From: a virus
Taxonomy: Duplodnaviria; Heunggongvirae; Uroviricota; Caudoviricetes
DNA: 25,842 nt
Strand: one strand, 5' to 3'
IMG/VR virus record: IMGVR_UViG_2609459774_000006
Coordinates: 1 to 25,842 of that record
In this document: one piece after another, positions 1,529 to 25,842 of the stretch
Layout of the letters: every line of letters begins with the position of its first letter
Position numbering within the stretch: the stretch's first letter is position 1
Made by a program: the position numbers and the translations under genes
The notes under the pieces: generated by a model
The model's input: the letters and a program-made list of their open reading frames with translations, nothing else
Database searches by the model: none
What the model was told of the DNA's origin: nothing

Positions 1529-1691
1529 ACATGTTCTTGAGGATCGCATCACCAAATTCTGAACATTTCAGCAGTTTAGCGCCTTCCATCAGACGTTCGA
1601 AGTCATAGGTTACGGTCTTGGCATTGATTGCGCCTTCCATACCTTTAACAATCAGGTCTGCGGCTTCGGTCCAACCCATGTGGCGTAACAG
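1527..1691 (-). pseudogene. icdC: 3' fragment of isocitrate dehydrogenase gene (last 54 codons, icdC-type remnant) marking the prophage attachment junction
   Basis: Minus-strand translation [54 protein letters not shown] matches the Icd C-terminus; no 5' part of the gene is present upstream. Confidence 0.85.
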
Positions 1692-8093: not shown

Positions 8094-8808
8094 TCAATGT
8101 TCGCTTCCTGTTAACTGCCGGACAAGTGCAACCAGTTCGCTTACCTGATTTTCCAGAGTGCTGATCCGGGTGCCTGCTGTTGCCAGATTTTGACGTAGCG
8201 TTGTGTTTTCCTCTTCCAGCGCGGTAACGCGATCATCTGTTTCACGGGCGACCTGAACAAGTAAACCCGTCACGGCGGAGTAGTCAACATTAAGATAGCG
8301 AGTTTCTTCGCGTAGCTCGTTGCCGTCAACGGTCGGACCTTGCAACTCTTCACCATAATGAGTAAACGATCCCACAGCTTCTGGTATCGCCTCCATTACT
8401 TCCTGTGCAATAACGCCAGCATAAGGCATCCCGTTTTCCTTGAGCGTGTAGGTGTATCCGTTCATTTTACGGATTGCTTTCGTCGCGTCGCTGATAACGA
8501 GAATATCGTCTTTAAGGTCGCGGTCTGATGACTGATTCAGCGTTGTGCAATTAATAGCGCCATTTACATCAAACAACTGGCCTGCTGACGTTTTTTGCGC
8601 ATAAAACAGATACGCAGCAGACGTTCCAACCTCAAAAACGTTTTGTCGAGTACTGGAACCCCACACCCTGACAGAAAACGGTAGTTCTGCATTACCTGAG
8701 TTCTGTAAAACAAAACGATTACCAGTCCCTGATTGCTTTGTAAGGGTTAAATCAACGGTTGAGTTAACCTCATTCTTGTTGATAGTGAGCGTCTGCGCTG
8801 TAGCCCCG
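8094..8808 (-). pseudogene. C-terminal fragment of a side tail fibre protein (no start; fused to lysozyme remnant)
   Basis: Frame stays open upstream of the 190-aa ORF to ~8808 (..[22 protein letters not shown]..); coiled-coil tail ..TALEEENTTLRQNLATAGTRISTLENQV. Confidence 0.55.
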
Positions 8809-9091
8809 TTATATCAACTTTTATGTACGGGTTAATTTGTCTGGCGACCGTGGCAAGGTCTTTATTCAGGAGGGCTTTGCATTCTGCTTTGGTATACGTT
8901 TTACCGAGCATGATGTCTTTTCCTGTATGCCCGTGACATACAGTCCATACACCAACAATATCTTTGTATGGTATGTAGCTGACACCTTCCAGACCATCGT
9001 TACCACTTGGGCCAGTGATTAACACTGATGCTATAGCAATTGCTCCGCCACCAATAGCAGCAGCAACGGCTTTTCGTAATGATGGAGGCAT
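8747..9091 (-). pseudogene. rrrD: Truncated phage lysozyme (RrrD-like N-terminal ~94 aa, then out-of-frame junk)
   Basis: [57 protein letters not shown]... matches lysozyme N-terminus; homology ends near 8812 where the tail-fibre frame begins. Confidence 0.75.
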
Positions 9092-9894: not shown

Positions 9895-10977
9895 ATGAAA
9901 AAATTAACAGTGGCAATTTCTGCTGTAGCTGCATCAGTACTGATGGCGATGTCTGCTCAGGCAGCTGAAATTTATAATAAAGACAGTAACAAGCTGGATC
10001 TATATGGGAAAGTTAATGCCAAGCACTACTTCTCCTCTAATGATGCAGATGATGGTGATACTACTTATGCCCGTCTTGGCTTCAAAGGTGAAACCCAAAT
10101 CAACGATCAACTGACTGGTTTCGGTCAGTGGGAATATGAATTCAAAGGCAACCGCGCTGAATCTCAAGGCTCCTCCAAAGACAAAACCCGTCTTGCATTT
10201 GCAGGCCTGAAATTCGGGGACTACGGCTCAATCGATTACGGCCGTAACTACGGTGTAGCATATGACATCGGTGCGTGGACTGACGTTCTGCCAGAATTCG
10301 GTGGCGATACCTGGACCCAAACAGATGTGTTCATGACTGGTCGCACCACTGGTGTTGCAACTTATCGTAACAACGACTTCTTTGGTCTGGTTGATGGTCT
10401 GAACTTTGCTGCTCAGTATCAGAGTAAAAATGACCGCACTGACGTAACTGAAGCTAATGGTGATGGTTTCGGTTTCTCCACTACTTATGAGTATGAAGGA
10501 TTCGGTGTAGGTGCAACCTATGCTAAATCTGACCGCACTAATAATCAGGTTATCTACGGTAACAACAGCCTGAATGCATCTGGTCAAAATGCTGAAGTAT
10601 GGGCAGCTGGTCTGAAATATGATGCGAACAACATCTATCTGGCTACCACCTATTCTGAAACCCAGAACATGACTGTTTTTGGTAATAACCATATTGCCAA
10701 CAAAGCACAAAACTTCGAAGTAGTTGCACAATATCAGTTCGACTTCGGTCTGCGTCCGTCCGTTGCTTACCTGCAATCTAAAGGAAAAGACTTGGGTGCG
10801 TGGGGTGATCAGGACCTGGTTGAATATATTGATGTAGGTGCAACCTATTACTTCAACAAAAATATGTCCACTTTTGTTGATTACAAAATCAACCTGATTG
10901 ATAAGAGCGATTTCACGAAAGCATCTGGCGTTGCTACCGATGATATCGTTGCTGTAGGTATGGTTTACCAGTTCTAA
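9895..10977 (+). CDS. nmpC: Outer-membrane porin of the OmpC/OmpF family (NmpC/OmpD-like), 360 aa, intact
   Basis: Signal peptide [23 protein letters not shown], porin-type beta-strand sequence ending ..VGMVYQF; SD aaaaaggg upstream. Confidence 0.85.
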
Positions 10978-13039: not shown

Positions 13040-13160
13040 GCTTCACCTCCGCAGAGGTCAAACGCTGGATGCAAAAAATCGCAGGTGCATTTCTGCATCT
13101 GTGGCGGGAGAAGAGAGTTTAGATTGTATGTGCGCATAAACGTCCCCGTTTAGCGCAGAA

Positions 13161-13189
13161 GTCACCGGAGTTGTTCAGGCTCCGGTGAC
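13161..13189. other. Perfect 10-bp stem-loop (gtcaccggag-N9-ctccggtgac) between NADAR and ninB
   Basis: Self-complementary arms seen directly; no adjacent T-run on either strand, so not a canonical terminator. Confidence 0.4.
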
Positions 13190-13299
13190 ATGATTATGGC
13201 TGGTTGATTATAGAAAATCAAAAACCTTTTATGGCAACAAAAAAACGCCGAGGGAGGTACGCCAGTTAATTTATGGAAGAAAATGCCCCAGATGGAACG

Positions 13300-13929
13300 C
13301 TAAAACAAGGATAAACTTTGCCCTGCTCCAGGCGTTGGCTTTACAAATGTTACATCTTTAATTCTTTCGCCTAGGAGAAAAAATTTGTCCAAAGATAGCG
13401 ATGGTATTGTTGCAAACCCATCAGCCCCCTTTTTCCTAGCAACCCCTCTCACGTCCATGAGAATTCGCCCTAATACGTTCATACCATAATAGTTACCTTC
13501 TGGGTCTTTACTGGCACCCCAGAATTGGTCCTTCTCTGAGTGTTCCACGATGAAATGGTCGCCTGTACTGTCTAACAGCGCAAAGAACGTATCCCAGTTC
13601 TGGCATAATTTTACGCATACACACCACTTCATAATCGAAACTCGATTCTTATCCCATCCTGCGCGAGTTTTGGATTCAAACGATCTTGCGGTCTGCTTGG
13701 CTTCATAGGGGTTTCCTTGAGTAATGATGGCCTTTTGTATATCCGGATAGTCTGGATATCGGCATGCTTGGTAAAGGATTTCACTTGATTGAATAGGCAA
13801 CCCATTGATTAACAATGGATATCCTTTAGCCATGTTGGAAAGCCCCCCCCATTTTTCGGTGGTTTTCCTGAAGGAAACTGTGTTCTGTAGCGGATATAAT
13901 CTATAGCTCATACCACTCATTATACCCAT
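13300..13929 (-). CDS. NADAR (YbiA-like, DUF1768) domain protein, ~203-209 aa; alternative starts at 13929, 13920 and 13911
   Basis: Family hallmarks: ..GGLSNMAKGYPLLINGLPIQSSEILYQACRY.. and ..LLDSTGDHFIVEHSEKDQFWGASKDPEGNYYGMNVLGRILMDVRG; overlaps the upstream gene. Confidence 0.75.
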   Translation of the reverse strand: MGIMSGMSYRLYPLQNTVSFRKTTEKWGGLSNMAKGYPLLINGLPIQSSEILYQACRYPDYPDIQKAIITQGNPYEAKQTARSFESKTRAGWDKNRVSIMKWCVCVKLCQNWDTFFALLDSTGDHFIVEHSEKDQFWGASKDPEGNYYGMNVLGRILMDVRGVARKKGADGFATIPSLSLDKFFLLGERIKDVTFVKPTPGAGQSLSLF

Positions 13930-14932
13930 TCCGCTTCATTAGTGGATACCAGCAGTCCAATGCGGGAGCACCTGTTGGTTCATAATCTCCCCACCAAAAA
14001 GCCAGCGGCACATTATTCGGGCAATTTCGATAAGTAAATGTTGTTCCCCCAAAACCCAAACCGTCAAAAGTAGAAAAACCTAGAGGTTTGAGCACCTCAC
14101 TAGGGGTTTTCCTGTGCAGCAAGATATTAAAGCCGACTTTAGTAAGGATAGATTCGAAACGATCCCTTGAGGCTTCATTTCTAAAACTATCAGAAGAGGC
14201 ATATCCATCTCTGAATACGCCTTTGTAAAGCTCACACTCCTCGAATTTCTCGGGAGTATCTACACTATATTTCCTTGGCCAGAAAACACCTGATTGAGCA
14301 GAACGACTTTTTCGGTTTTCAACCTCACGCATACCACCATTCTTCACGTGTACAAAAATGTTTCTATCCTTAAAAATATATTCTAATCGTCTTTTTATAT
14401 TATAGTCAGATAACGTATGAGATGAAAAAAAATATACATTGAATTTAATATCTCTTAAATTAAATTTTAAAACAAAATTACTTATCGATTTGATGGCCTT
14501 TTCTCCTGAAAACGACACATCATCAATATATACAAATGTATCAAATTTATTTACTTCATCTTGAGTTGATGATTCAGTAACGATGTTAAATTTGATCCCT
14601 ACTGTTTCATAAAGAGATTTAAGCAATTCCTTCTGACTAGAACCTTTTTTTTGAATATCTAAAAAACCTGCATATCTGAAGAATTTCGCGTTCTTTTCAC
14701 TTCTTGCAATGGCTTTTATTTTTCGTTGATATTGACTTTCGGATAGGTAACCTGCATTAAGTAGATAAAGCGTTTCATCTAAGATAAATCGTCTATCCTC
14801 CACTGCAAATTGCTTAATCCATTTGCTGACATGTTCAGAGTTCATACCTTCAGCCGGAGGATATTTATAATCGCTCAACTTTTCAGCAATTTTATTGATT
14901 ACTTTTTCACCAGATAAAATATTCGAGGACAT
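13901..14932 (-). CDS. Unknown 343-aa protein with a PRPP-binding-loop-like motif (FVYIDDVSFSGEK); partner of the NADAR gene
   Basis: Long ORF with SD AAGGAA 8 nt before ATG; very AT-rich; motif hhhhDDxxxSG resembles type I phosphoribosyltransferase loop, but the fold is unverified. Confidence 0.6.
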   Translation of the reverse strand: MSSNILSGEKVINKIAEKLSDYKYPPAEGMNSEHVSKWIKQFAVEDRRFILDETLYLLNAGYLSESQYQRKIKAIARSEKNAKFFRYAGFLDIQKKGSSQKELLKSLYETVGIKFNIVTESSTQDEVNKFDTFVYIDDVSFSGEKAIKSISNFVLKFNLRDIKFNVYFFSSHTLSDYNIKRRLEYIFKDRNIFVHVKNGGMREVENRKSRSAQSGVFWPRKYSVDTPEKFEECELYKGVFRDGYASSDSFRNEASRDRFESILTKVGFNILLHRKTPSEVLKPLGFSTFDGLGFGGTTFTYRNCPNNVPLAFWWGDYEPTGAPALDCWYPLMKRNGYNEWYEL

Positions 14933-15088
14933 AAAAATTCCTTTTCACAACACAGAATCTAAAAAATAAGAATACTTTTATTTATTTCAAGTATAGACCG
15001 TATATTCAACTACTTTTTTTTATAGTAGGGAGATACCGATCACAATTTTTAGATATCTAATGTGATGGTTTAATAACCAGCAGTCTTA

Positions 15089-15108
15089 CGTGTTAATTCA
15101 CGTAAAAA
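15089..15108. promoter_or_regulatory. Palindrome TTACGTG-N6-CACGTAA in the AT-rich leader upstream of the 343-aa/NADAR cassette
   Basis: Perfect 7-bp inverted arms; no T-run in terminator configuration, so more likely an operator-type site. Confidence 0.3.
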
Positions 15109-15143
15109 AACTCATCAAACCTTCCTCTTTTCAGTTAATTCTT

Positions 15144-15728
15144 TTAAGAATAAACATCAGTAACTCGGGCCGGGCTTAATGCTACGGTTGGCGAATCACA
15201 CTTGTTTCCCCATACGTCGAAACCGTGGGAGGATTTACGCGCAAAGAGCTCAATACGTGGAAGATTACCCAGCAACCGAACCAGCATTTCACGCACGCAG
15301 TCTGGTTTACGTGAGTGCTCATGTCGCGGCGAGGTGTAGTGCTGGATGATCGAGGCGTCCTGCTGTGGTGCCCGCTTACCCTTTACCGCGAAAAGACAAT
15401 CTTCACGGTTCGCCCGGATCAGGTGTCCCATTCCCATCGCCGATTTGTCAGTTTGCTTCGGGTAGGTTTTATCCCAAGTGAAACCTTTCATTGTGATCAG
15501 GCGAAATCCCCAGGCATCGACGACTTTCATCGCCTCGAACGTTTGAGTTGGCAACCACCACATCGCCAGCTGGCAGCTTTCTGCAACCCGCTCCCTTACT
15601 GGCAGCCAGCAGATATCCTGCACCGTCATAACCAAGTATTTATGCCCGGTGCCACGCTTACCAGAATTGCATTTATCCTCGTACGTCCAGGGCGGATCCG
15701 CTTAGATCAACGTGTATTTCTTGTTCAT
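15144..15728 (-). pseudogene. MT-A70-type phage DNA N6-adenine methyltransferase interrupted by a TAA at codon 9
   Basis: Minus-strand reading MNKKYTLI*ADPPWTYEDKCNSGKRGTGHKYLVMTVQDICWLPV...; DPPW catalytic motif lies just after the stop (15702-15704). Confidence 0.7.
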
Positions 15729-15730
15729 GG

Positions 15731-15925
15731 TTAAATAAATCCGACTGCTTTACGCGCTTTGTATTGCTCAAGCAAAAGCTGAGCGGGAGTCGGCCCGGGC
15801 ACGTGGCGCGGAGCCGAGATTTGTTTTCTGACCGGAGGGATTGGTTTGCCCTCACTGACGCGCTTCTCCCACATGTCCAGCAGGTCACCAGCCTCGCATG
15901 CCAGCTCGCCATGCGTTAAACCGAA
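15731..15925 (-). pseudogene. P: C-terminal fragment of replication protein P (about 63 aa)
   Basis: ..GLTHGELACEAGDLLDMWEKRVSEGKPIPPVRKQISAPRHVPGPTPAQLLLEQYKARKAVGFI* aligns with the lambda P C-terminus as recalled; no N-terminus on this strand. Confidence 0.5.
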
Positions 15926-15929
15926 TTTT

Positions 15930-16178
15930 GCAGGGTGGGCTAACGATATCCGCCTGATGCGTGAACGTGACGGACGTAACCACCGCGACATGTGCGTGCT
16001 GTTCCGCTGGGCATGCCAGGACAACTTCTGGTCCGGTAACGTGCTAAGTCCGGCCAAACTCCGCGACAAGTGGACCCAACTCGAAATCAACCGTAACAAG
16101 CAACAGGCTGGTGTGACTGCCAGCAAACCAAAACTCGACCTGACAAACACTGACTGGATTTACGGGGTGGAGCTATGA
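15930..16178 (+). pseudogene. O: C-terminal fragment of replication initiator O (about 81 aa), on the opposite strand to the O N-terminus
   Basis: ..ANDIRLMRERDGRNHRDMCVLFRWACQDNFWSGNVLSPAKLRDKWTQLEINRNKQQAGVTASKPKLDLTNTDWIYGVEL* matches the lambda O C-terminus. Confidence 0.6.
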
Positions 16179-16765
16179 AAAATATTGCCGCGCAGATGAT
16201 TAACTTTGACCGTGAGCAGATGCGTCGAATCGCCAACAACATGCCGGAACAATACGACGAAAAGCCGCAGGTGCAGCAGGTGGCGCAGATCATCAACGGT
16301 GTGTTCAGCCAGCTGCTTGCGACATTTCCGGCAAGCCTCGCGAACCGCGACCAGAACGAGCTGAACGAAATCCGCCGTCAGTGGGTTATGGCTTTCCGTG
16401 AAAATGGAATTACCACTATGGAGCAGGTTAACGCCGGAATGCGCGTGGCCCGCCGACAGGAGCGACCATTCCTGCCGTCGCCCGGCCAGTTCGTAGCGTG
16501 GTGTAAGCAGAGTGGCGGGGCGTTAGGTATCACTGTTGACCAAGTCATAACCGAATACTGGGATTGGCGTAATCGTTCCTTCGAATTCACTTCCAGCGAG
16601 CATTTCCCGTGGTCACAGCCTGTCATGTACCACATCTGCGTCGAACTGCGCCACCGTAGCATTGAGCGCCAGTTTCTGGCTGATGGCGCGATGGTCTTCA
16701 CCATGTCAAACATCCACTCTGCGGCGGTCAGGTCTTCTGCTGTCCCCCACCTGCTGCCGCTCTGA
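16175..16765 (+). pseudogene. P: N-terminal ~170 aa of replication protein P (helicase loader); the ORF tail after ~16680 is probably not P
   Basis: MKNIAAQMINFDREQMRRIANNMPEQYDEKPQVQQVAQIINGVFSQLLATFPASLANRDQNELNEIRRQW.. matches the lambda P N-terminus; start overlaps the O stop as in lambda. Confidence 0.65.
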
Positions 16766-17343
16766 ATTGCAGCATCTGGTTTCTCCACAGGAAGATCGTT
16801 TTCTGGTTGGTCAGAGGATTCGCCAGAATTCTCGGACGAAAAAGGTTTTATATTGTCTTTTGTTAGTTTGTCTTTTGTGTTTACCTGATTCGGGTAAACG
16901 CCTTTACCTGATTTAGGTAAACTTTTCTTACCTGATTCAGGTAAATTTACCTCTTTCAGGTAAACTTTATTTTTCTTACCCGATTCGGGTAATGTTGACC
17001 ATTCACTGACCACATTATTGATGCCGATATTCCGCCCGCTCTGAATAAAAATCCCACGCTTTACCAGAACACTTTTTGCAGCAGAACACTTGTGCGGCAA
17101 TATCCCGGTTAATTCGGAAAGTTGCTCGTTGCTAACCCAATCCAGTTTTTTATTAAAGCCATATGTTTTGCGCATGACAGCCAGAAAGACCAGAAGCTGG
17201 TGCTGTGTTAATCCGGCCAGCATCACAGCTTCCAGCAACTCATTTGCAATGCGCGTATAACCATCATCGAGATCTGCCACGCGCCGCTCCTTTTGTGCCA
17301 CATCCGGCACAGGAAAATTGAATATCTCAGCAGTGTTTGCCAT
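16680..17343 (-). pseudogene. O: N-terminal part of replication initiator O (iteron-binding domain plus linker); likely start at 17343, the ORF track extends to 17433
   Basis: MANTAEIFNFPVPDVAQKERRVADLDDGYTRIANELLEAVMLAGLTQHQLLVFLAVMRKTYGFNK.. with SD GGGAGG before the ATG at 17343; contains the iterons. Confidence 0.65.
16881..16992. repeat. Replication origin iterons: five copies of the palindromic ~18-bp unit TTACCTGATTCGGGTAAA, with an AT-rich stretch at 16835-16880
   Basis: Copies at 16881, 16904, 16928, 16947 and 16976 read directly from the sequence, inside the O N-terminal coding region. Confidence 0.75.
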
Positions 17344-17429
17344 AATTCCTCCCGCAATGAGTGTGTTACGATTTGCACCTGAAAGTCGGTTCTGTTCCCG
17401 CAGACCGACTTTCGCCATTTTTGAACCTG

Positions 17430-17969
17430 TCATATTGCCCCCAGCATGGTGGTGACCATCGCCATCAATGGACCAGCCAGATCCGGGTCCACTCGAAACA
17501 TCGACACAATGCCTTCACTCATCTCCTTCAGTTTCTGGTGGCGTGGTGCGTTGAGAATGACCGCCTGCTTTGCCTCACAGAGTTCCTTTTCCATTTCAGC
17601 CAGCCGAGCCATGAAGCTATCCTGCTCAACCAGGTGGCCGCGATATTCCAGCGGTAGTACCGCCAGAATTGCCGGGGTCAGTTCACGCACGTTATTTCGG
17701 TATTTTTCAGAATCGAATTTGTTATCGAGGAAGCGGAACAGCTTCTGGCGTGCACGGCTGACATCATCAGGGAAATCGATAGTGCCGCCGCCCTGCTCCC
17801 GATACTCATTCACAATGAGTGTGGCAACGACATCCTGATTATCTTCAGCCGACCAGGCGCGGACGGCATCACGGATTTTTTCGTGGCCTGGCACCTGTTT
17901 TGTTTGAGAACGATTTATCACCGCAGTCGGGCTAAATCCGCTAGTCTGTTGGTATGTAAGTGGTTGCAT
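17430..17969 (-). CDS. YdaT-like protein at the cII position, 179 aa
   Basis: Segments ..VATLIVNEYREQGGG.. and ..LTPAILAVLPLEYRGHLVEQ.. resemble Rac prophage YdaT; directly downstream of the cro-like gene. Confidence 0.6.
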   Translation of the reverse strand: MQPLTYQQTSGFSPTAVINRSQTKQVPGHEKIRDAVRAWSAEDNQDVVATLIVNEYREQGGGTIDFPDDVSRARQKLFRFLDNKFDSEKYRNNVRELTPAILAVLPLEYRGHLVEQDSFMARLAEMEKELCEAKQAVILNAPRHQKLKEMSEGIVSMFRVDPDLAGPLMAMVTTMLGAI

Positions 17970-18038
17970 AATTGACTCCTTTAGTTTGAATTGACTGTTA
18001 AGTTGATTGCTTATTGTTAAAGAGCGTGAAATGGAAAT

Positions 18039-18269
18039 TTAAGCTGCGTTCTTTTCGGTGTGTGGAAACAACTTCGGAAGATCCGGGCGAATCTGGTATG
18101 CCTTCACTACTCCACCAGTAGCCGTAACAATGCTGCCGACATGTTCAGGGGATACCTTTGCTTTGTTGTGAAGCCACTTATAGACGGCCTGCTGTGAAAC
18201 TTCGCAGGCAGCGCCCAGTTTCTTTTGTGAACCAACGATATTGATCGCTGTTTTGATAGCTGGATTCAT
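18039..18269 (-). CDS. cro: Cro-like HTH regulator (YdaS family), 76 aa
   Basis: Small HTH protein ..QKKLGAACEVSQQAVYKWLHNKAKVSPE.. divergent from the CI-like repressor. Confidence 0.7.
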   Translation of the reverse strand: MNPAIKTAINIVGSQKKLGAACEVSQQAVYKWLHNKAKVSPEHVGSIVTATGGVVKAYQIRPDLPKLFPHTEKNAA

Positions 18270-18373
18270 AACAACCTCCGTGGTTAATTTGAATCAAGAT
18301 TAAAACTATGGTTGTTTTTAGTCAACAACCATTTTCGTTTGATGGAATAAAACCTTGGTTGTACATTTGGACT
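18270..18373. promoter_or_regulatory. Right operator/promoter region between cro and cI with dyads built on AACAAC/GTTGTT half-sites
   Basis: ATGGTTGTT-N7-AACAACCAT (9-bp perfect inverted arms) plus AACAACC..GGTTAAT in the divergent intergenic region. Confidence 0.5.
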
Positions 18374-19063
18374 ATGAAAACAACACTCTCAGAAAGACTT
18401 AAAGAAGCCAGATTAGCGCGAGGCCTTACACAAAAGGCGCTTGGGGATTTGGTCGGGGTTAGCCAAGCTGCTATTCAGAAAATCGAAACAGGGAAAGCTA
18501 ACCAAACAACTAAAATCGTGGAGATCGCGAACGCTTTGGGTGTGCGCGCAGAATGGTTATCTTCTGGCGTTGGAAATATGTCAGACAGTACAGTGCAACC
18601 AATACAATCAACTGTCAGCCATTCCAAATACTTTAAGATTGACGTTCTTGATATAGAAGTGAGTGCCGGGCCGGGAGTCATCAACCGTGAATTTGTAGAA
18701 GTTCTACGCTCGGTTGAGTACTCGTTTGACGATGCTCGTCACATGTTCGATGGCAGGAAGGCGGAAAATATCCGCATCATTAACGTGCGTGGTGACAGCA
18801 TGTCAGGAACGATCGAACCAGGTGATCTGCTGTTCGTTGATATCACGGTTAAATCTTTCGACGGTGATGGTATCTATGCGTTTCTGTACGACGACACAGC
18901 CCATGTAAAGCGCCTGCAAATGATGAAAGATAAGCTACTGGTTATCTCTGATAACAAGAGCTACTCACCGTGGGACCCGATCGAGAAAGACGAGATGAAC
19001 CGGGTGTTCATTTTCGGGAAGGTTATTGGCAGTATGCCGCAGACGTATAGGAAACACGGATAA
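18374..19063 (+). CDS. cI: CI-type repressor with N-terminal HTH and C-terminal S24 (LexA-like) autopeptidase domain, ~229 aa
   Basis: HTH ..LTQKALGDLVGVSQAAIQKIETGK..; S24 motifs ..VRGDSMSGTIEPGDLLFVD.. and ..HVKRL..; the ORF track starts earlier at 18308 inside the operator. Confidence 0.85.
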   Translation: MKTTLSERLKEARLARGLTQKALGDLVGVSQAAIQKIETGKANQTTKIVEIANALGVRAEWLSSGVGNMSDSTVQPIQSTVSHSKYFKIDVLDIEVSAGPGVINREFVEVLRSVEYSFDDARHMFDGRKAENIRIINVRGDSMSGTIEPGDLLFVDITVKSFDGDGIYAFLYDDTAHVKRLQMMKDKLLVISDNKSYSPWDPIEKDEMNRVFIFGKVIGSMPQTYRKHG

Positions 19064-19142
19064 TCAGCTGCGTGCTGATGAGGCTTTTGGGTAATGCGCT
19101 GAAAGAATTCTTTATAAAAATAACATTACGGGAAAGGCAAAA

Positions 19143-19412
19143 ATGAGTGATAAAAAACTTATAAAAAAATCAAATAACTGTGTAGATGCATATGCTGATG
19201 CATTTGGATATTCATCTTTTGGGGAAGATGACGATCGCTTAGGCTCCATATCTTTCTTTCAGCATGTTACAGAATGGGGCGCTGATGGTAGTAATGACAC
19301 TGAAAACGTAAAGTACAACATTGCAACAATTCGCATGACGGAAGATTTAATGCTTAAACTCGCTGACTTTATTCGCGATCAGCATGATAGAGCTAAAACC
19401 AATAAGTCATAA
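19143..19412 (+). CDS. Unknown acidic 89-aa protein in the immunity operon (rexA position)
   Basis: ORF with SD GGAAAGG before ATG, same strand as cI; no recognisable family. Confidence 0.5.
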   Translation: MSDKKLIKKSNNCVDAYADAFGYSSFGEDDDRLGSISFFQHVTEWGADGSNDTENVKYNIATIRMTEDLMLKLADFIRDQHDRAKTNKS

Positions 19413-19420
19413 TATTAACA

Positions 19421-19861
19421 ATGAAACACGGTTATTACGAAGCTCCAAACCTAACTGAAAAGCTTGAACAAGCGGCAAGATCATCATCTTTGCACACTGC
19501 AGCATTTTCTCAATCAGCTGGTATGTCTGGCGGTAATGTACCTATGCTACAATCAAGTGGTAGCGGTGGCTCTGGGAGTAATAATGTGCTTGAATCGAAA
19601 GTTGCAAAGCTTGAGTCTGATGTGTCCTATATCCGACGTGACGTTGATGAGCTTAAGACAGATGTCAAATCTATCGACAGAAACATGATCGCTGTTCTGG
19701 AGCGACTCGATTCAATAAAAGATTCACTAGCCAAAAAACCCTCCATCGATGCTGTCGATAGAAAGATTTCAGACGCAAAGCTTGCGGTATTGCTTGGTGT
19801 TCCAGCAATCATCGCTGCAGGAACAGGTCTTTATAAGCTATCAATGTACTTTTTTCTTTAG
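19421..19861 (+). CDS. Unknown 146-aa protein: Ser/Gly-rich N-terminus, coiled-coil, C-terminal transmembrane anchor (rexB position)
   Basis: ..VAKLESDVSYIRRDVDELKTDVKSIDRNMIAVLERLDSIKD.. then hydrophobic tail LAVLLGVPAIIAAGTGLYKLSMYFFL; starts 9 bp after the previous gene. Confidence 0.55.
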   Translation: MKHGYYEAPNLTEKLEQAARSSSLHTAAFSQSAGMSGGNVPMLQSSGSGGSGSNNVLESKVAKLESDVSYIRRDVDELKTDVKSIDRNMIAVLERLDSIKDSLAKKPSIDAVDRKISDAKLAVLLGVPAIIAAGTGLYKLSMYFFL

Positions 19862-19936
19862 TGCTTAAGAAACTGCTCGCCACCTTGCATTACGCAAAGC
19901 GATTTTTCATTCCCTATTACCCTTTCTTATCCATCT

Positions 19937-19966
19937 AAACCCGGCCCCAGTGCCGGGTTTTCTTTT
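19937..19966 (+). terminator. Intrinsic terminator ending the immunity operon
   Basis: Stem acccggc/gccgggt with 6-nt loop followed by TTTTCTTTT. Confidence 0.6.
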
Positions 19967-20080
19967 GCCTCCCCTCATCACACAAACCGTTCAAAAAACC
20001 ACCACAACCTCGCTTCAGTTATCGCTATGCGATGCAAGTCACAAAATAAATCCATCTTAAATACAACCAGTTATATCTAA

Positions 20081-20140
20081 AACAACCAATAAAACAACTT
20101 TTGTTGTTGACGATAAAACAACTATAGTTTTAAATGAATT
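20081..20140 (+). promoter_or_regulatory. Putative pL/oL: -35 TTGACG (20107-20112), 17-bp spacer, -10 TTAAAT (20130-20135), overlapped by AACAAC-TTTT-GTTGTT dyad
   Basis: Hexamers and spacing read from the sequence; same half-site as the cro-cI operators. Confidence 0.4.
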
Positions 20141-20208
20141 CATCGCAACAACACAACGATACGGCAATCACCTGATTCACCGTTGCGATGACCGCTTAGA
20201 TCCGCAGC

Positions 20209-20619
20209 TTGAATTTCAGCAGGCTCCGGGGAGTGCGAGGGGTGAAGCGGACGCGTGAACGTCGGTGTGACCAGCTGAAATCAACTCAACACTTCATACC
20301 TCAGTCGCTTCAACGAGGCGACTTAGTTATGACAACCGGCGGCCATCCACCGCCTGAATACGCGCAGAAGTCTCTATATGTTCAGCAGCCCAGCTTACGG
20401 GCAGGAGTTTTTATGGTTCATCAACATTACGGAACGCAGACCGTTAATCGAGGTGCGGTCATGCCAGGAATGCTGGTCAAACACAAAGATGGTACCTGGA
20501 CTGCATCAGCTAATTTACGCGGACGGCTATATCTGCATCGCGGCATCGAGCGCACTTATACCCGTGATTTGCTCGTGGAAGTTTTTCTCGACGGACGCGG
20601 TAACGGCCTGAATCACTAA
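20209..20619 (+). CDS. Hypothetical protein at the N/kil position of the leftward operon (TTG start in track; ATG alternatives at 20329 and 20414)
   Basis: Open frame between pL and gam; Arg-rich N-terminal stretch [15 protein letters not shown] if translated from the TTG. Confidence 0.35.
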
Positions 20620-20694
20620 TCCCCTTTCCTGTTTTCCTAATCAGCCTGGCATTTCGCGGGCGATATTTTCACAGCCATTTTCAGGAGTTCAGCC

Positions 20695-20991
20695 ATGAAC
20701 GCTTATTACATTCAGGATCGTCTTGAGGCTCAGAGCTGGGCACGTCACTACCAGCAGATCGCCCGTGAAGAGAAAGAGGCAGAACTGGCAGACGACATGG
20801 AAAAAGGCCTGCCCCAGCACCTGTTTGAATCGCTATGCATCGATCATTTGCAACGCCACGGGGCCAGCAAAAAAGCCATTACCCGTGCGTTTGATGACGA
20901 TGTTGAGTTTCAGGAGCGCATGGCAGAACACATCCGGTACATGGTTGAAATCATTGCTCACCACCAGTTTGATATTGATTCAGAGGTATAA
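20695..20991 (+). CDS. gam: Gam, RecBCD inhibitor (short form), 98 aa
   Basis: [60 protein letters not shown]... matches lambda Gam. Confidence 0.9.
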
Positions 20992-20996
20992 AACGG

Positions 20997-21782
20997 ATGA
21001 GTACAGCACTCGCAACGCTGGCAGGGAAGCTGGCTGAACGTGTCGGCATGGATTCTGTCGACCCACAGGAACTGATCACCACTCTTCGCCAGACGGCATT
21101 TAAAGGTGATGCCAGCGATGCGCAGTTCATCGCATTGTTGATCGTCGCCAACCAGTACGGCCTTAATCCGTGGACGAAAGAAATTTACGCCTTCCCTGAT
21201 AAGCAGAACGGCATTGTTCCGGTGGTGGGCGTTGATGGCTGGTCCCGCATCATCAATGAAAACCAGCAGTTTGATGGTATGGACTTTGAGCAGGACAATG
21301 AATCCTGTACATGCCGGATTTACCGCAAGGACCGCAATCATCCGATCTGCGTCACCGAGTGGATGGATGAATGCCGCCGCGAACCATTCAAAACCCGCGA
21401 AGGCAGAGAAATCACGGGGCCGTGGCAGTCGCATCCCAAACGGATGTTACGGCATAAAGCCATGATTCAGTGTGCCCGTCTGGCCTTCGGATTTGCTGGT
21501 ATCTATGACAAGGATGAAGCCGAGCGCATTGTCGAAAATACCGCATACACTGCAGAACGTCAGCCGGAACGCGACATCACTCCGGTTAACGATGAAACCA
21601 TGCAGGAGATTAACACTCTGCTGATTGCCCTGGATAAAACATGGGATGACGACTTATTGCCGCTCTGTTCCCAGATATTTCGCCGCGACATTCGCGCATC
21701 GTCAGAACTGACACAGGCCGAAGCAGTGAAAGCTCTTGGATTCCTGAAACAGAAAGCCTCTGAGCAGAAGGTGGCTGCATGA
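20997..21782 (+). CDS. bet: Bet (Red-beta) single-strand annealing protein, 261 aa
   Basis: [66 protein letters not shown]... matches lambda Bet. Confidence 0.95.
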
Positions 21783-22459
21783 CACCGGACATTATCCTGC
21801 AGCGTACCGGGATCGACGTGAGAGCTGTCGAACAGGGAGATGATGCGTGGAACAAATTACGACTCGGCGTCATCACGGCTTCAGAAGTTCACAATGTGAT
21901 AGCAAAACCCCGCTCCGGTAAAAAGTGGCCTGACATGAAAATGTCCTACTTTCACACCCTGCTGGCTGAGATTTGCACCGGTGTGGCTCCGGAAGTTAAC
22001 GCTAAGGCGCTGGCCTGGGGAAAACAGTACGAGAATGACGCCAGAGCCCTGTTTGAGTTTACTTCCGGCGTGAATGTTACTGAATCCCCGATCATCTATC
22101 GCGACGAAAGTATGCGCACCGCCTGCTCTCCCGATGGTTTATGCAGTGACGGCAACGGCCTTGAGCTGAAATGCCCGTTTACCTCCCGGGATTTCATGAA
22201 GTTCCGGCTCGGTGGTTTCGAGGCCATAAAGTCGGCTTACATGGCCCAGGTGCAGTACAGCATGTGGGTGACACGAAAAGATGCCTGGTACTTTGCCAAC
22301 TATGACCCGCGTATGAAGCGTGAAGGACTGCATTATGTCGTGGTTGAGCGGGATGAAAAGTACATGGCGAGTTTTGACGAGATGGTGCCGGAGTTCATCG
22401 AAAAAATGGACGAGGCACTGGCTGAAATTGGTTTTGTATTTGGGGAGCAATGGCGATGA
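21779..22459 (+). CDS. exo: Exo (Red-alpha) 5'-3' exonuclease, 226 aa
   Basis: [64 protein letters not shown]... matches lambda Exo; overlaps bet by 4 bp. Confidence 0.95.
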
Positions 22460-22614
22460 CGCATCCTCACGATAATATCCGGGTAGGCGCGATCACTTTC
22501 GTCTACTCCATTACAAAGCGAGGCTGGGTATTTCCCGGCCTTTCTGTTATCAGAAATCCACTGAAAGCACAGCGGCTGGCTGAGAAGATAAATAATAAAC
22601 AGGAGGATATATGA
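22456..22614 (+). CDS. Small hypothetical protein (52 aa) bridging exo and the DGQHR gene
   Basis: Hand translation [52 protein letters not shown]; ATGA overlaps at both ends. Confidence 0.4.
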
Positions 22615-23675
22615 GTCAGGTTGGTAATCATTCATTCGAATTTCCGGCATCGCAAGGTGTACAGGGTGGTACTGTTACACTCTTCCTTACCATACCAGGA
22701 AGATCGCTGGCTCGTTTCCTCGCTTCAGATAATTACGGCCATACACTGGAACGCTCTCAGCGAGAAATTAATCCAAATCGAGTACGAAAATTTTTAAATT
22801 ATCTCACTAACGCAGACTCAAGAAATGAGTCTTTTATCATTCCCCCTCTCGTAGGTAACTGTGATTCGAATATAGAATTTGTACCGTTTGGCAACACAAA
22901 TGTTGGTATAGCCAGAATTCCCCTCGACGCCGAAATAAAACTTTTTGATGGCCAACATCGTGCAGCTGGCATTGAGATATTTTGCCGAAGTTCCCCATCA
23001 ACGCTCATGGTTCCCATGATGCTTACAATGAATCTGCCGCTAAAAACCCGGCAGCAGTTCTTTTCGGACATAAATAACAACGTTTCTAAGCCATCAGCGA
23101 CCATCAATATGGCGTATAACGGCCGGGATGATATTGCTCAGGGAATGATATCCTTCCTGACCCAACATACTGTATTTGCCGATATAACCGATTTTGAACA
23201 CAACGTAGTGCCATTAAAAAGTAATATGTGGGTGAGTTTCAAGGCACTCACTGATGCAACGTCAAAGTTTGCTAGGAACGGCAATCAACAACTTGAAATG
23301 GGATATATAGAATCTGTCTGGGAGGCATGGATTACACTAACTCAGATTGACTCAATCCGACATGGTGTACACCACGCTACGTACAAGCGCGATTATATTC
23401 AGTTCCATGGAGTAATGATTAACGCTTTCGGTTTTGCGGTTCAACAGATGATGGTTAATCATTCCATCGCAGAAATAACTTCTATGATCGAAAAACTCTG
23501 TGCAACTACCAGCTCTGCAGAAAGAGAGGATTTTTTTCTGATGGATAACTGGGCGGGGATCTGCACGAAAGCCAGCCAGGAAAAACTATCGGTTATTGCC
23601 AATGTGGCAGCGCAGAAAGCAGCAGCAAACAGACTGATACAAGCTTTTACCAAAGGAAGTCTGGAAACAACTTAA
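22611..23675 (+). CDS. DGQHR-domain protein (DndB-like, ParB/sulfiredoxin-fold superfamily), 354 aa
   Basis: Literal motif ..AEIKLFDGQHRAAGIEIF.. in a 354-aa ORF; family assignment from motif only. Confidence 0.65.
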   Translation: MSQVGNHSFEFPASQGVQGGTVTLFLTIPGRSLARFLASDNYGHTLERSQREINPNRVRKFLNYLTNADSRNESFIIPPLVGNCDSNIEFVPFGNTNVGIARIPLDAEIKLFDGQHRAAGIEIFCRSSPSTLMVPMMLTMNLPLKTRQQFFSDINNNVSKPSATINMAYNGRDDIAQGMISFLTQHTVFADITDFEHNVVPLKSNMWVSFKALTDATSKFARNGNQQLEMGYIESVWEAWITLTQIDSIRHGVHHATYKRDYIQFHGVMINAFGFAVQQMMVNHSIAEITSMIEKLCATTSSAEREDFFLMDNWAGICTKASQEKLSVIANVAAQKAAANRLIQAFTKGSLETT

Positions 23676-23752
23676 TGAATCAACATTGTCTCATATCAGC
23701 ATGCTGTACGGCGTCTTTAAGGAACGGTGAGCATGAAAAACAAAATCATCAT

Positions 23753-23776
23753 GGAGCTACAGGCTCCTTTTTTATT
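23753..23776 (+). terminator. Intrinsic terminator downstream of the DGQHR gene
   Basis: Stem ggagc/gctcc with 5-nt loop followed by TTTTTT. Confidence 0.5.
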
Positions 23777-23828
23777 ATTCGCATTCACCCTCAAGCGTAT
23801 TAACCAACAATTCAGGGATTAATGAAAG

Positions 23829-24047
23829 ATGGCAGACATCATTGATTCAGCATCAGAAATTGAAGAATTACAGCGCAACACAGCAATAAAAATGCGCCGC
23901 CTGAACCACCAGGCTATATCTGCCACTCATTGTTGTGAGTGTGGCGATCCGCTAGATGAACGAAGACGCCTGGCCGTTCAGGGTTGTCGGACTTGTGCAA
24001 GTTGCCAGGAGGAGATCGAACTTAAGAACAAACAATGGGGACTGTGA
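23829..24047 (+). CDS. TraR/DksA-family C4 zinc-finger protein, 72 aa
   Basis: ..CCECGDPLDERRRLAVQGCRTCASCQEE.. four-Cys motif typical of phage TraR homologues. Confidence 0.75.
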   Translation: MADIIDSASEIEELQRNTAIKMRRLNHQAISATHCCECGDPLDERRRLAVQGCRTCASCQEEIELKNKQWGL

Positions 24048-24094
24048 TGGCCTCAAAGCAGCAAATTTCAACATCGTCCAACTGAGGTGTAAAA

Positions 24095-24334
24095 ATGTTC
24101 AGAATCATTTTTCCTAACACCTGGTACGTCGACCACCACGGCACTCCCTGCAAAATCCTGCGTTCTACCCACAACAAAGTTCACTACATCCGAAAAGGCA
24201 GAACATGTATCGCCAGCATGTTCCGCTTTAATCATGACTTTGAACCTGTGAATAAAGCTGATGCAGATCGGATAGCAGAAGAGATCGAAACGGCAGAACA
24301 CATTAAGAAGTTACGTGCCATACGCAGGAAATAG
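24095..24334 (+). CDS. Hypothetical protein, 79 aa
   Basis: ORF in operon context between traR-like and xis-like genes; no recognised family. Confidence 0.4.
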   Translation: MFRIIFPNTWYVDHHGTPCKILRSTHNKVHYIRKGRTCIASMFRFNHDFEPVNKADADRIAEEIETAEHIKKLRAIRRK

Positions 24335-24473
24335 AAAAATTGATAAATTCAATACTGCATTTCTCAGCATTAAATTTATCTCTATGACCAGTCAAGAGAT
24401 GTACCTGCCATGAGCTTAATATCATGTCAGATATATCGGTCACAAACTCCCTCAGCAGCTAAGAGGAGGACAA

Positions 24474-24710
24474 ATGTCTCGACTAATCACTTTACAGGAC
24501 TGGGCTAAAGAAGAATTTGGGGACTTAGCACCAAGTGAGCGAGTTCTGAAAAAATACGCGCAAGGGAAAATGATGGCCCCACCCGCTATAAAAGTTGGTC
24601 GCTACTGGATGATTGACCGAAATTCCCGTTTTGTAGGAACGCTGGCAGAACCGCAACTCCCAATAAACGCAAACCCAAAACTCCAACGGATAATCGCTGA
24701 TGGCTGCTAG
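24474..24710 (+). CDS. xis: Excisionase-like DNA-binding protein, 78 aa
   Basis: MSRLITLQDWAKEEFG.. small protein immediately upstream of and overlapping the integrase gene; SD AGGAGG. Confidence 0.65.
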   Translation: MSRLITLQDWAKEEFGDLAPSERVLKKYAQGKMMAPPAIKVGRYWMIDRNSRFVGTLAEPQLPINANPKLQRIIADGC

Positions 24711-25842
24711 ACCCCGATCTCACAAAATCTCTATACCCAATTTATATTGCAAATTAGATAAGCGAACCGGAAAGGTATATTGGCAATACAAACATCCACT
24801 ATCCGGTCGTTTTCATAGCTTAGGAACTGATGAGAATGAAGCAAAACAAGTTGCTACTGAAGCAAATACCATTATTGCTGAACAACGTACCAGACAAATA
24901 TTAAGCGTCAATGAGCGTCTGGAAAGAATGAAAGGCAGGCGCTCAGACATTACGGTGACAGAATGGCTTGATAAATATATTTCTATCCAGGAGGACAGGC
25001 TGCAACATAATGAACTAAGACCCAACTCCTATCGGCAAAAAGGCAAACCCATTCGTCTTTTCCGTGAGCATTGTGGAATGCAACACCTCAAGGATATTAC
25101 CGCACTTGATATTGCCGAAATAATTGATGCTGTAAAGGCTGAAGGTCATAACAGGATGGCGCAAGTCGTGAGAATGGTGTTGATCGACGTCTTCAAAGAA
25201 GCACAACACGCAGGACATGTTCCGCCAGGATTTAACCCAGCGCAGGCAACAAAACAACCGCGAAATCGAGTAAACCGCCAAAGATTGTCACTGCCCGAAT
25301 GGCAGGCAATATTTGAAAGCGTAAGCAGACGGCAGCCCTATTTAAAATGCGGCATGCTACTTGCTCTTGTTACTGGACAACGTTTAGGCGATATCTGCAA
25401 TTTGAAATTCTCTGATATATGGGACGACATGTTGCACATTACTCAGGAAAAAACCGGTTCAAAACTTGCTATTCCGCTTAACCTGAAATGCGATGCTCTG
25501 AATATTACCCTTCGTGAAGTTATATCTCAGTGCAGGGATGCTGTTGTTAGTAAATATCTGGTCCATTACCGTCACACTACCTCTCAAGCAAACAGAGGAG
25601 ACCAGGTTTCTGCAAATACTCTGACAACGGCTTTTAAAAAGGCCAGGGAAAAATGTGGCATAAAATGGGAGCAAGGAACTGCGCCCACATTTCATGAGCA
25701 GCGATCTCTGTCAGAACGGTTATATCGGGAACAGGGTCTGGATACGCAAAAGTTGTTAGGCCATAAATCCAGAAAAATGACCGACCGATACAATGATGAT
25801 CGTGGTAAAGACTGGGTTATCGTAGATATCAAAACAGCATAG
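24700..25842 (+). CDS. int: Tyrosine recombinase / phage integrase (e14 IntE-like), 380 aa
   Basis: MAARPR..VYWQYKHPLSGRFHSLGT.. and C-terminal catalytic region ..HEQRSLSERLYREQG..LLGHKS..; stop at window end. Confidence 0.9.
   Translation: MAARPRSHKISIPNLYCKLDKRTGKVYWQYKHPLSGRFHSLGTDENEAKQVATEANTIIAEQRTRQILSVNERLERMKGRRSDITVTEWLDKYISIQEDRLQHNELRPNSYRQKGKPIRLFREHCGMQHLKDITALDIAEIIDAVKAEGHNRMAQVVRMVLIDVFKEAQHAGHVPPGFNPAQATKQPRNRVNRQRLSLPEWQAIFESVSRRQPYLKCGMLLALVTGQRLGDICNLKFSDIWDDMLHITQEKTGSKLAIPLNLKCDALNITLREVISQCRDAVVSKYLVHYRHTTSQANRGDQVSANTLTTAFKKAREKCGIKWEQGTAPTFHEQRSLSERLYREQGLDTQKLLGHKSRKMTDRYNDDRGKDWVIVDIKTA

What the first reader, a model, noticed from the sequence alone, without database searches (positions are those of the whole stretch)
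15731..17343. Replication module scrambled: apparent ~0.75-kb inversion with breakpoints inside O and P
The O N-terminal domain with its five iterons is on the minus strand, like cro and the nin/Q genes. The O C-terminal ~81 aa and P N-terminal ~170 aa are on the plus strand (15930-16680), and a P C-terminal fragment is again on the minus strand (15731-15925). Re-inverting roughly 15925-16680 would restore O of about 300 aa and P of about 233 aa, so this is most simply one inversion that inactivates both replication genes and leaves the prophage replication-defective. Precise breakpoints are uncertain by tens of bp.
Basis: partly seen in the sequence, partly recalled or inferred. Interest (0 to 1): 0.5.

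Follow-up and report, generated by a model that had tools for sequence, protein, structure and literature searches.

The report
Private inversion breaking prophage replication genes
A 755-bp piece of DNA spanning the boundary of the two replication genes (O and P) of an already crippled lambda-like prophage has been flipped in this one E. coli isolate, which cuts both genes in two; it is a real but ordinary, strain-private decay mutation.

Summary
Window 15920-16672 is inverted, with a 2-bp AA/TT overlap at each end, so the breakpoints can be written as 15918/15920 and 16672/16674. Compared with E. coli TD225-C4, E94 and E92, the segment is 100% identical but reversed, and no base is gained or lost. 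Re-inverting it in silico restores O (309 aa, or 339 aa from the upstream ATG) and P (228 aa). The restored 2.1 kb then matches 19 of 5,426 complete E. coli genomes end to end. The sequence as found matches none.

The window is identical to GenBank contig JNPW01000027.1 (E. coli 2-210-07_S4_C1). An independent Logan assembly of run SRR1186782 spans both junctions, so an assembler artefact is unlikely.

The junction sequences occur nowhere else in the collections searched. The breakpoints have no inverted repeats, no IS element and no invertase-type sites, which points to a one-off non-homologous inversion.

The host element is a cryptic lambdoid prophage at icd that lacks head and tail genes. 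Relatives lost O/P independently, through IS1 or deletion. Interest is low.

The parts
15731..15919 (-). P C-terminal fragment (codons 167-228 plus stop). It is left without a start codon or its N-terminal domain.
   Evidence: Translation LTHGELACEAGD...KAVGFI*. It joins in frame to ...RHRSIERQ after re-inversion. It is 100% identical to the 3' end of the P gene WP_000788795.1 in TD225-C4.
15918..15919 (.). Left junction: the 2-bp overlap AA, shared by both parental sequences.
   Evidence: Overlapping BLAST segments. Junction analysis shows 2 bp of microhomology, which has about 0.15 probability by chance.
15920..16672 (.). Inverted segment (unambiguous core; about 755 bp counting the shared dinucleotide).
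   Evidence: 757-bp, 100% reverse-strand match to TD225-C4 and to E94. Re-inversion restores O and P and collinearity with 19 complete genomes.
15918..16178 (+). O C-terminal fragment (last 86 aa plus stop, the P-binding domain), now on the opposite strand and lacking a start codon of its own.
   Evidence: Translation KPNFAGWANDIRLMRE...DWIYGVEL*. It aligns almost identically to a lambda O sequence recalled from memory. The role of the domain is taken from PMC6022878.
16175..16765 (+). Chimeric ORF P' (196 aa): P residues 1-166 followed by 30 residues read from the antisense of O. It is deposited as KDW85987.1.
   Evidence: Pfam Phage_lambda_P covers 134 of 162 profile positions, E = 3e-42. 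The exact protein sits on one contig, in a cluster of one. No promoter-like site was found upstream.
16673..16674 (.). Right junction: the 2-bp overlap TT.
16378..17433 (-). Chimeric ORF O' (351 aa from the upstream ATG at 17433; the lambda-equivalent start is at 17343). Genuine O sequence runs down to 16675 (253 or 223 residues). It is followed by a 98-residue nonsense tail read from the antisense of P.
   Evidence: Pfam Phage_rep_O DNA-binding domain is complete, E = 7e-34. ORF list. The exact protein is present in the Logan SRR1186782 contig.
16876..16992 (.). Replication origin iterons: five copies of TTACC(T/C)NNTT(C/T)(G/A)GGTAA-type 18-bp palindromes. They lie outside the inversion and are intact.
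   Evidence: the repeat finder family D1, 5 copies. Sequence shown.
16836..16875 (.). A+T-rich stretch next to the iterons (75% A+T). It occupies the position of the lambda origin unwinding region and is intact.
   Evidence: 75% A+T against 56% for the whole window. The position is judged by analogy with ori-lambda (PMC6022878).
17318..17346 (+). Promoter-like site antisense to the start of O, in the position of lambda pO (the oop RNA promoter). It is unaffected by the inversion.
   Evidence: Promoter scan TTGAAT-17-CATAAT, 9 of 12 matches with an extended TG. The position of pO relative to O is taken from PMC6022878. Its function was not tested.

Best explanation
This is a single real mutation: a base-conservative, non-homologous inversion of about 755 bp inside the replication operon of a cryptic lambdoid prophage integrated at icd in E. 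coli 2-210-07_S4_C1.

One break fell in O between codons 223 and 224. The other fell in P between codons 166 and 167. The segment between them holds the O C-terminal domain, which binds P, and the P N-terminal part, which binds O. That segment was rejoined backwards across a shared AA/TT dinucleotide.

Consequences (inferred, not measured):
- Transcription from pR can still make an O fragment that carries the origin-binding domain, but it lacks the domain that recruits P.
- P is split. Its C-terminal part, suggested to bind DnaB, has no start codon. Its N-terminal part faces against pR transcription and has no recognisable promoter.
- The intact origin (five iterons plus the A+T-rich stretch) can therefore no longer be fired by the prophage's own proteins.

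The lesion is one of several independent ways in which this prophage family has lost O/P. It is probably neutral or mildly advantageous, because it removes P toxicity and in-situ replication after derepression.
For: - Shown: perfect reversed identity of 757 bp between perfect forward flanks, against TD225-C4 and E94.
- Shown: re-inversion restores O (309/339 aa) and P (228 aa), and end-to-end single-piece matches to 19 of 5,426 complete genomes, against 0 for the sequence as found.
- Shown: the window is 100% identical to NCBI contig JNPW01000027.1 and to a 16.1-kb Logan contig from SRR1186782. Both junctions lie more than 6 kb inside that contig.
- Shown: the rearranged junction 28/29-mers are absent from the IMG/VR (left junction only), JGI metagenome (both junctions) and GTDB genome (left junction only) collections. 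The ancestral junction 29-mers are present in 5 and at least 120 viral contigs.
- Shown: chimeric P' sits on one contig only, in a cluster of one.
- Shown: there is no inverted repeat beyond 2 bp, and in-register identity around the breakpoints equals background.
- Shown: the domain content of the fragments (Pfam), and the match of P to the lambda P helicase loader structures 8v9t and 6bbm.
- From the literature: the O N-terminus binds DNA and the O C-terminus binds P; the P N-terminus binds O and the P C-terminus binds DnaB; even Oam205, truncated at 294 aa, is listed there among the O amber mutants (PMC6022878).
- From the literature: P toxicity and 'replicative killing' by derepressible trapped prophages select for O/P mutants (PMC3640518; PMC6022878).
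- Shown: relatives of the same icd prophage carry IS1-truncated O, or no O/P at all.
- Shown: only 5 SNPs separate the 22.5 kb shared with E94, so the event is recent.
Against: - No read-level data could be examined, so a low-level mixture of orientations cannot be excluded.
- If SRR1186782 is the run behind the GenBank assembly, which is likely but unverified, the two assemblies are independent in software only, not in DNA.
- Loss of replication function, and any selective benefit, are inferred. int and xis look intact, so the classical 'replicative killing' argument for non-excisable prophages applies only loosely.
- The molecular agent of the inversion is unknown.
Confidence: 0.86

Rival explanations
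1. Assembly or sequencing artefact. On this reading the isolate really has collinear O-P, and the inversion was introduced by the assembler or by chimeric library molecules.
For: - The arrangement is known from one isolate only.
- The GenBank record is a short-read draft assembly (47.9-kb contig).
- No reads could be inspected.
Against: - Two assemblies from different pipelines, NCBI GCA_000703925.1 and Logan SRR1186782, contain both junctions well inside 48-kb and 16-kb contigs and are 100% identical.
- Assemblers mis-orient segments at repeats longer than their word or overlap length. Here the only shared sequence is 2 bp.
- Both junctions are exactly reciprocal, with no base lost or gained. 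Random chimeric reads would not produce that at consensus depth.
Confidence: 0.07
2. Recombinase-catalysed inversion. On this reading a serine invertase (Din family: Pin, Hin, Gin or Cin type) or another site-specific recombinase acted on sites in O and P. The event could be a programmed, reversible switch or an off-target event at cryptic sites.
For: - The exchange is perfectly conservative and has a 2-bp overlap, which is the length of the staggered cut made by serine recombinases (the enzyme property comes from general knowledge).
- The prophage carries a remnant of a recombinase gene at window 5815-6262. RefSeq annotates it in TD225-C4, in a block 99.95% identical to the window here.
Against: - The 12-bp half-sites at both breakpoints match a Din consensus (recalled from memory) at 3 of 18 specified positions each. 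That is below the background mean of 4.6.
- The window has no match to the 26-bp consensus with up to 3 mismatches.
- There is no inverted repeat at the ends.
- A 2-bp overlap arises by chance in about 15% of random breakpoint pairs.
- The local recombinase gene is a frameshifted, N-terminally truncated pseudogene.
- All 19 complete genomes with this module have the collinear orientation.
- Contigs are not broken at the junctions, as they would be for a mixed, switching population.
Confidence: 0.04
3. Mosaic acquisition. On this reading the reversed segment was imported from another phage or prophage by recombination, rather than flipped in place.
For: Lambdoid replication modules are highly mosaic, and O C-terminal/P N-terminal sequences are shared by many phages.
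Against: - The reversed 757 bp is 100% identical to the segment occupying exactly that interval in the closest relatives, and the flanks are also identical.
- Import in reverse orientation would need homology at the ends, and there is none.
- No donor with a reversed arrangement exists in any collection searched.
Confidence: 0.02

Closest known systems
Bacteriophage lambda replication module (O initiator, P helicase loader, ori-lambda inside O)
   Same: - Same gene order and translational coupling once re-inverted. The O stop overlaps the P start, at ATGA.
- The O C-terminal 130 aa and the P N-terminal 110 aa are nearly identical to lambda, compared with sequences recalled from memory. P also matches the PDB chains of lambda P.
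- The iterons and an A+T-rich stretch lie inside O.
- Pfam Phage_rep_O and Phage_lambda_P both match.
   Different: - There are five iterons rather than four.
- The O N-terminal domain and the P C-terminal half are diverged alleles.
- In this window the module is broken by the inversion, so neither protein is encoded whole.
Collinear O-P module of the same icd prophage in E. coli TD225-C4, E94 and E92 (WP_077890207.1, WP_000788795.1)
   Same: 100% nucleotide identity over the 2.1-kb region after re-inversion. The integration site and neighbouring genes are the same.
   Different: Orientation of the 755-bp segment. E94 additionally keeps 5.9 kb of lysis, terminase and tail-fibre remnants that are deleted in the window. 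TD225-C4 lacks the nin-Q-porin-lysis block.
RK- (replicative-killing-defective) mutants of trapped lambda prophages, and decay of 'grounded' prophages
   Same: Inactivation of O and/or P in a prophage that cannot complete a lytic cycle. Laboratory survivors carry insertions and deletions in O or P (PMC6022878). Reviews list inversions among prophage-decay lesions (PMC6379469). Natural relatives here carry IS1 in O.
   Different: The lesion here is a small intragenic inversion spanning two genes, without repeats or IS elements. Selection for it is conjecture. int and xis appear intact.
Din-family invertible segments (Hin/hix, Gin/gix, Cin/cix, Pin of e14)
   Same: It is a small inversion in a prophage at the e14 attachment site, with conservative exchange and a 2-bp overlap.
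   Different: There are no crossover-site repeats, no functional invertase next to it, no second orientation in the population, and the inversion destroys genes rather than switching between alternatives.

Membership tests
Lambda-type replication module (O/P/ori) | Initiator with a Phage_rep_O origin-binding domain | tested here: met
   PF04492, E = 7e-34, full-length domain match in the O' ORF.
Lambda-type replication module (O/P/ori) | Helicase loader of the lambda P family | tested here: met
   PF06992, E = 3e-48 for restored P. The PDB chains 8v9t and 6bbm also match.
Lambda-type replication module (O/P/ori) | Iterons and an A+T-rich stretch inside the initiator gene | tested here: met
   Five iterons at 16876-16992. 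75% A+T at 16836-16875.
Lambda-type replication module (O/P/ori) | Uninterrupted O and P reading frames (a functional member) | tested here: not met
   Both genes are split by the inversion. The frames are whole only after in-silico re-inversion.
Programmed DNA-inversion switch (Din-family serine invertase) | Inverted-repeat crossover sites (about 26 bp) at both ends of the segment | tested here: not met
   Only 2 bp are shared. In-register identity equals background. Half-site matches are 3 of 18. There is no consensus match in the window. The consensus was recalled from memory.
Programmed DNA-inversion switch (Din-family serine invertase) | Functional invertase gene adjacent to the segment | tested here: not met
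   The only recombinase-family remnant (window 5815-6262) is annotated as frameshifted, carrying an internal stop and lacking its N-terminus, in TD225-C4, in a block 99.95% identical to the window. It lies 9.6 kb away.
Programmed DNA-inversion switch (Din-family serine invertase) | Both orientations found among related genomes or within a culture | tested here: not met
   All 19 complete genomes with this module are collinear, and the inverted form is found in one isolate only. Heterogeneity within a culture cannot be tested without reads.
IS-mediated inversion | IS copies or target-site duplications at the junctions | tested here: not met
   The junctions join O and P sequence directly, with no inserted bases.
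Homologous-recombination inversion | Inverted repeats of tens of bp or more at the breakpoints | tested here: not met
   No inverted-repeat pair sits at both breakpoints. The overlap is 2 bp.
Cryptic (grounded) lambdoid prophage at the icd/e14 site | Integration next to icd with a duplicated icd 3' end, integrase and excisionase present, morphogenesis genes absent | tested here: met
   - The window ends at the integrase gene that adjoins icd in TD225-C4 and E94.
- Window 1474-1690 is 95% identical to the icd 3' end.
- The gene list runs int-xis-exo-bet-gam-kil-cI-cro-cII-like-O/P-nin-Q-porin-S-R' and then directly to a tail-fibre fragment.

The most novel reading that the evidence does not exclude
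The exact, base-conservative exchange across a shared 2-bp AA/TT core may be the footprint of a serine recombinase, which makes a 2-bp staggered cut, acting at cryptic sites. On this reading, a Din-type invertase encoded elsewhere in the genome made an off-target inversion that knocked out a prophage's replication genes, and the event might be reversible. That would make stray invertase activity a mechanism of prophage grounding.
Probability: 0.04. Interest if true: 0.4.

Novelty: new member of a known kind. Interest (0 to 1): 0.12.

Why it matters
The matter is mostly one of bookkeeping. The isolate's O and P are pseudogene fragments, and the deposited 'replication protein P' (KDW85987.1 / WP_248699997.1) is a chimera with 30 nonsense residues.

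The lesion also adds a clean natural example to a pattern. In this icd prophage family the replication module is lost repeatedly and by different routes: IS1 insertion, deletion, and here an inversion. The immunity, recombination and defence-like genes persist. That fits the laboratory finding that trapped lambda prophages are selected to lose O/P.

It does not open a new question.

Tried and rejected
- Inverted repeats at the junctions. The repeat finder with a 6-nt seed and in-register comparison of the ancestral breakpoints found nothing beyond AA/TT.
- Din-type (hix/gix/cix/pix) crossover sites. A consensus search of the window with up to 3 mismatches gave 0 hits, and half-site scores at the breakpoints were below background. 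The consensus was recalled from memory, so this is a weak test.
- IS involvement. There are no extra bases at the junctions.
- Search for clonal sister isolates, to date the event. I looked up strain-specific alleles. The acyltransferase and porin alleles are private to this isolate, and the tail-fibre fragment occurs in 6 contigs, none with the same prophage. No sister was available.
- Junction k-mers in the metagenome, GTDB and IMG/VR collections gave no hits. Ancestral junction controls did give hits.
- A promoter that could drive the inverted P' ORF. The consensus scan predicted none.
- Rfam and tRNA scans of the window found nothing.
- A literature search for the strain name gave no paper.
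- My first brute-force scan of breakpoints by ORF length was uninformative. Alignment to a collinear relative replaced it.

Full report
**What is in the sequence.**
- On the minus strand, an ORF from 17433 (the lambda-equivalent start is at 17343) reads as a lambda-type O protein as far as ...MVKTIAPSAR at 16675. It then runs on as nonsense to 16378.
- On the plus strand, 15918-16178 reads KPNFAGWANDIRLMRE...DWIYGVEL*, the O C-terminus. The overlapping ATG at 16175 opens a P reading frame that is genuine up to ...RHRSIERQ at 16672.
- On the minus strand again, 15919-15731 reads LTHGELACEAGD...KAVGFI*, a P C-terminus.

Pfam finds a complete Phage_rep_O domain in the O piece and 134 of 162 positions of Phage_lambda_P in the P piece. 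Five iterons lie at 16876-16992, next to a 75% A+T stretch at 16836-16875. Both are outside the rearranged segment.

**Exact anatomy.** A megablast of 15400-17500 against 5,426 complete E. coli genomes found no genome with 80% or more of the query in one place. In 19 genomes, both flanks lay on one strand exactly 2,101 bp apart, with a second match elsewhere in the record. I fetched one of them, TD225-C4. A direct BLAST gives:
- window 13151-15919 = reference 15752-18520 (100%)
- window 15918-16674 = reference 19275-18519, reversed (757 bp, 100%)
- window 16673-25842 = reference 19274-28443 (99.97%)

So a segment of about 755 bp is flipped (unambiguous core 15920-16672). No base is gained or lost, and a 2-bp overlap (AA on the left, TT on the right) makes each junction ambiguous by two bases. 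In the reference, O (WP_077890207.1, 339 aa) and P (WP_000788795.1, 228 aa) are intact, adjacent and on one strand.

Reverse-complementing 15920-16672 in silico restores O (309 aa from the lambda-equivalent start, 339 aa from the upstream ATG) and P (228 aa). The region 13151-25842 then differs from TD225-C4 at 3 positions. The restored 2,101 bp matches 19 complete genomes end to end in a single piece, three of them at 100.0% identity: TD225-C4, E94 and E92. The polarity of the change is therefore clear. The collinear form is ancestral and the window carries the derived form.

**Is it real DNA or an artefact?** The chimeric 196-aa P' and 351-aa O' products were looked up by exact sequence.
- P' is KDW85987.1 of E. 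coli 2-210-07_S4_C1, on contig JNPW01000027.1 of GCA_000703925.1.
- O' is called on a 16.1-kb contig of the Logan assembly of run SRR1186782.
- The window is 100% identical to both, and the Logan contig spans both junctions with more than 6 kb on either side.

Two pipelines therefore reconstruct the same two novel junctions. There is no repeat longer than 2 bp that could mislead an assembler, and the two junctions are exactly reciprocal. I could not inspect reads. I also could not verify that SRR1186782 belongs to this isolate, although a private acyltransferase allele of the isolate is also recorded from Logan. I put the artefact reading at about 7%.

**How common is it?**
- The rearranged junction 28/29-mers are absent from the JGI metagenome contigs (both junctions), and from one genome per GTDB species and IMG/VR (left junction).
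- The ancestral junction 29-mers occur in 5 (P allele) and at least 120 (O) IMG/VR contigs.
- P' forms a cluster of one among 5.8 billion clusters.
- No phage record has the arrangement.

The inversion is therefore private to this isolate as far as public data go. Attempts to find clonal sisters failed, because the isolate's acyltransferase and porin alleles are also private. The closest complete genome, E94, differs by only 5 SNPs over the 22.5 kb shared, plus a 5.9-kb deletion and the inversion. The event is therefore recent.

**Mechanism of formation.** Around the ancestral breakpoints, the in-register identity between one site and the reverse complement of the other is at background level: 15 of 62 positions. 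The 2-bp overlap would occur by chance in about 15% of random breakpoint pairs. There is no IS element. There is also no match to a Din-family (hix/gix-type) crossover consensus. That consensus was recalled from memory, and the breakpoints match it at 3 of 18 specified positions each, against a background mean of 4.6. The only recombinase-family gene nearby is a truncated, frameshifted remnant. The event is best described as a one-off illegitimate (non-homologous) but conservative inversion. The enzyme responsible cannot be named from sequence. A serine recombinase acting at cryptic sites is not excluded, since a 2-bp overlap equals its cut stagger, but nothing else supports that reading.

**What it does (inferred).** According to the literature on lambda, the O N-terminal region binds the iterons and its C-terminal region binds P. 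The P N-terminal part binds O, and the P C-terminal part was suggested to interact with DnaB. Even an O amber at residue 294 of 299 is listed there among the O amber mutants (PMC6022878). Here:
- O is cut after residue 223 of 309, so it keeps DNA binding but loses the P-binding domain.
- P is cut after residue 166 of 228, which separates its two functions.
- The O C-terminal and P N-terminal pieces now face against pR transcription, with no promoter-like site upstream.

The origin itself and a pO-like promoter at 17318-17346 are untouched. The prophage should therefore be unable to fire its own origin.

**Context.** The element is a lambdoid prophage integrated at icd, the e14 site. Its gene order is int, xis, a DndB-like gene, exo, bet, gam, kil, cI, a YdaS-like cro, a YdaT-like gene in the cII position, O/P, an MT-A70 pseudogene, a PRTase-like plus NADAR pair, nin genes, Q, a porin, holin and a truncated lysozyme. 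It then runs straight to a tail-fibre fragment, an acyltransferase, a recombinase remnant, McrBC-like genes and the duplicated icd end. It has no head or tail genes, so it was already cryptic.

Relatives of the same prophage show other, independent losses of the replication module:
- O truncated next to IS1, or missing beside IS1 (L004, L005, L008, L009)
- the whole region deleted (L006, L007)
- the region intact (L010, and the 19 complete genomes)

Laboratory work shows that derepressible lambda prophages that cannot escape the chromosome kill the host through O/P-dependent replication, and that survivors are O/P mutants. P alone is also toxic (PMC6022878; PMC3640518). Inversions are listed among the lesions of 'grounded' prophages (PMC6379469). 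Selection for the inversion here is plausible but unproven, and int and xis look intact.

**Verdict.** This is an ordinary, strain-private inactivating rearrangement in a decaying prophage, and it has low novelty. The only unusual details are its neatness (no base lost, no repeats) and the fact that one event disables two genes.

Noticed in passing
window 8806-8811 (junction), compared with E94 locus L143 5498-11406: Relative to E. coli E94, the window lacks 5.9 kb: part of the lysozyme gene, Rz, iss, nohD, terminase and lom fragments, and most of a tail-fibre gene. The BLAST segments overlap by 6 bp at the junction. This is a second illegitimate rearrangement in the same prophage. It leaves a 114-aa lysozyme fragment next to a 190-aa tail-fibre C-terminus.
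   Followed up: partly
window 13300-14932, minus strand: Two overlapping genes sit in the nin region: a PRTase-CE (phosphoribosyltransferase-like) protein of 343 aa and a NADAR protein. Both give weak PADLOC matches (retron type III-A PRTase, E = 7.5e-11; candidate system PDC-M42C, E = 1.5e-8). This may be a prophage-borne anti-phage gene pair.
   Followed up: partly
window 22611-23675, plus strand: A solitary DndB-like (DGQHR domain) protein lies between exo/DUF1317 and xis (PADLOC DndB, E = 1.6e-37). No other dnd genes are in the window. The exact protein is very widespread in E. coli, listed in 3,571 index blocks.
   Followed up: partly
window 15144-15728, minus strand: An MT-A70 family DNA methyltransferase gene lies directly downstream of P, in the ren position. 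It is interrupted by an internal stop in the collinear relatives too, so this pseudogene predates the inversion.
   Followed up: partly
window 2391-5491, minus strand, and 5815-6262: An McrC gene and a 651-660-aa AAA ATPase (McrB-like, with an nSTAND3/DUF8425 N-terminal region) lie at the far end of the prophage. Next to them is a truncated, frameshifted recombinase-family (invertase-like) pseudogene.
   Followed up: no
window 9895-10977, plus strand: A porin gene (OmpC/OmpD/Lc type, 360 aa) sits between Q and the holin gene, on the opposite strand. The exact allele is private to this isolate.
   Followed up: no
window 1474-1690: This stretch is a 217-bp copy, 95% identical, of the 3' end of icd. 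It is the attachment-site duplication typical of elements integrated at the e14 site.
   Followed up: partly
window 17318-17346, plus strand, with iterons at 16876-16992: A pO-like promoter lies antisense to the start of O, and the iterons are intact. In lambda, oop plus iterons carried on plasmids are enough to block replication of incoming phages with the same replication type (PMC3349717). The remnant could still have such an exclusion effect, which was not tested here.
   Followed up: no
loci L004, L005, L008, L009 (relatives of the same icd prophage): In many E. coli genomes, IS1 sits where O is truncated (a 162-aa O fragment next to IS1 in L008 and L009) or missing (L004, L005), and the region from there to the McrBC-like genes is deleted. 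This is an independent and much more common way of losing the replication module.
   Followed up: partly
window 18308-19063, plus strand: The cI-like repressor ORF is 251 aa from its first ATG. RefSeq annotates 229 aa for the same gene in relatives, so the true start is uncertain. A 9-bp-stem hairpin overlaps the upstream ATG at 18308-18332.
   Followed up: no
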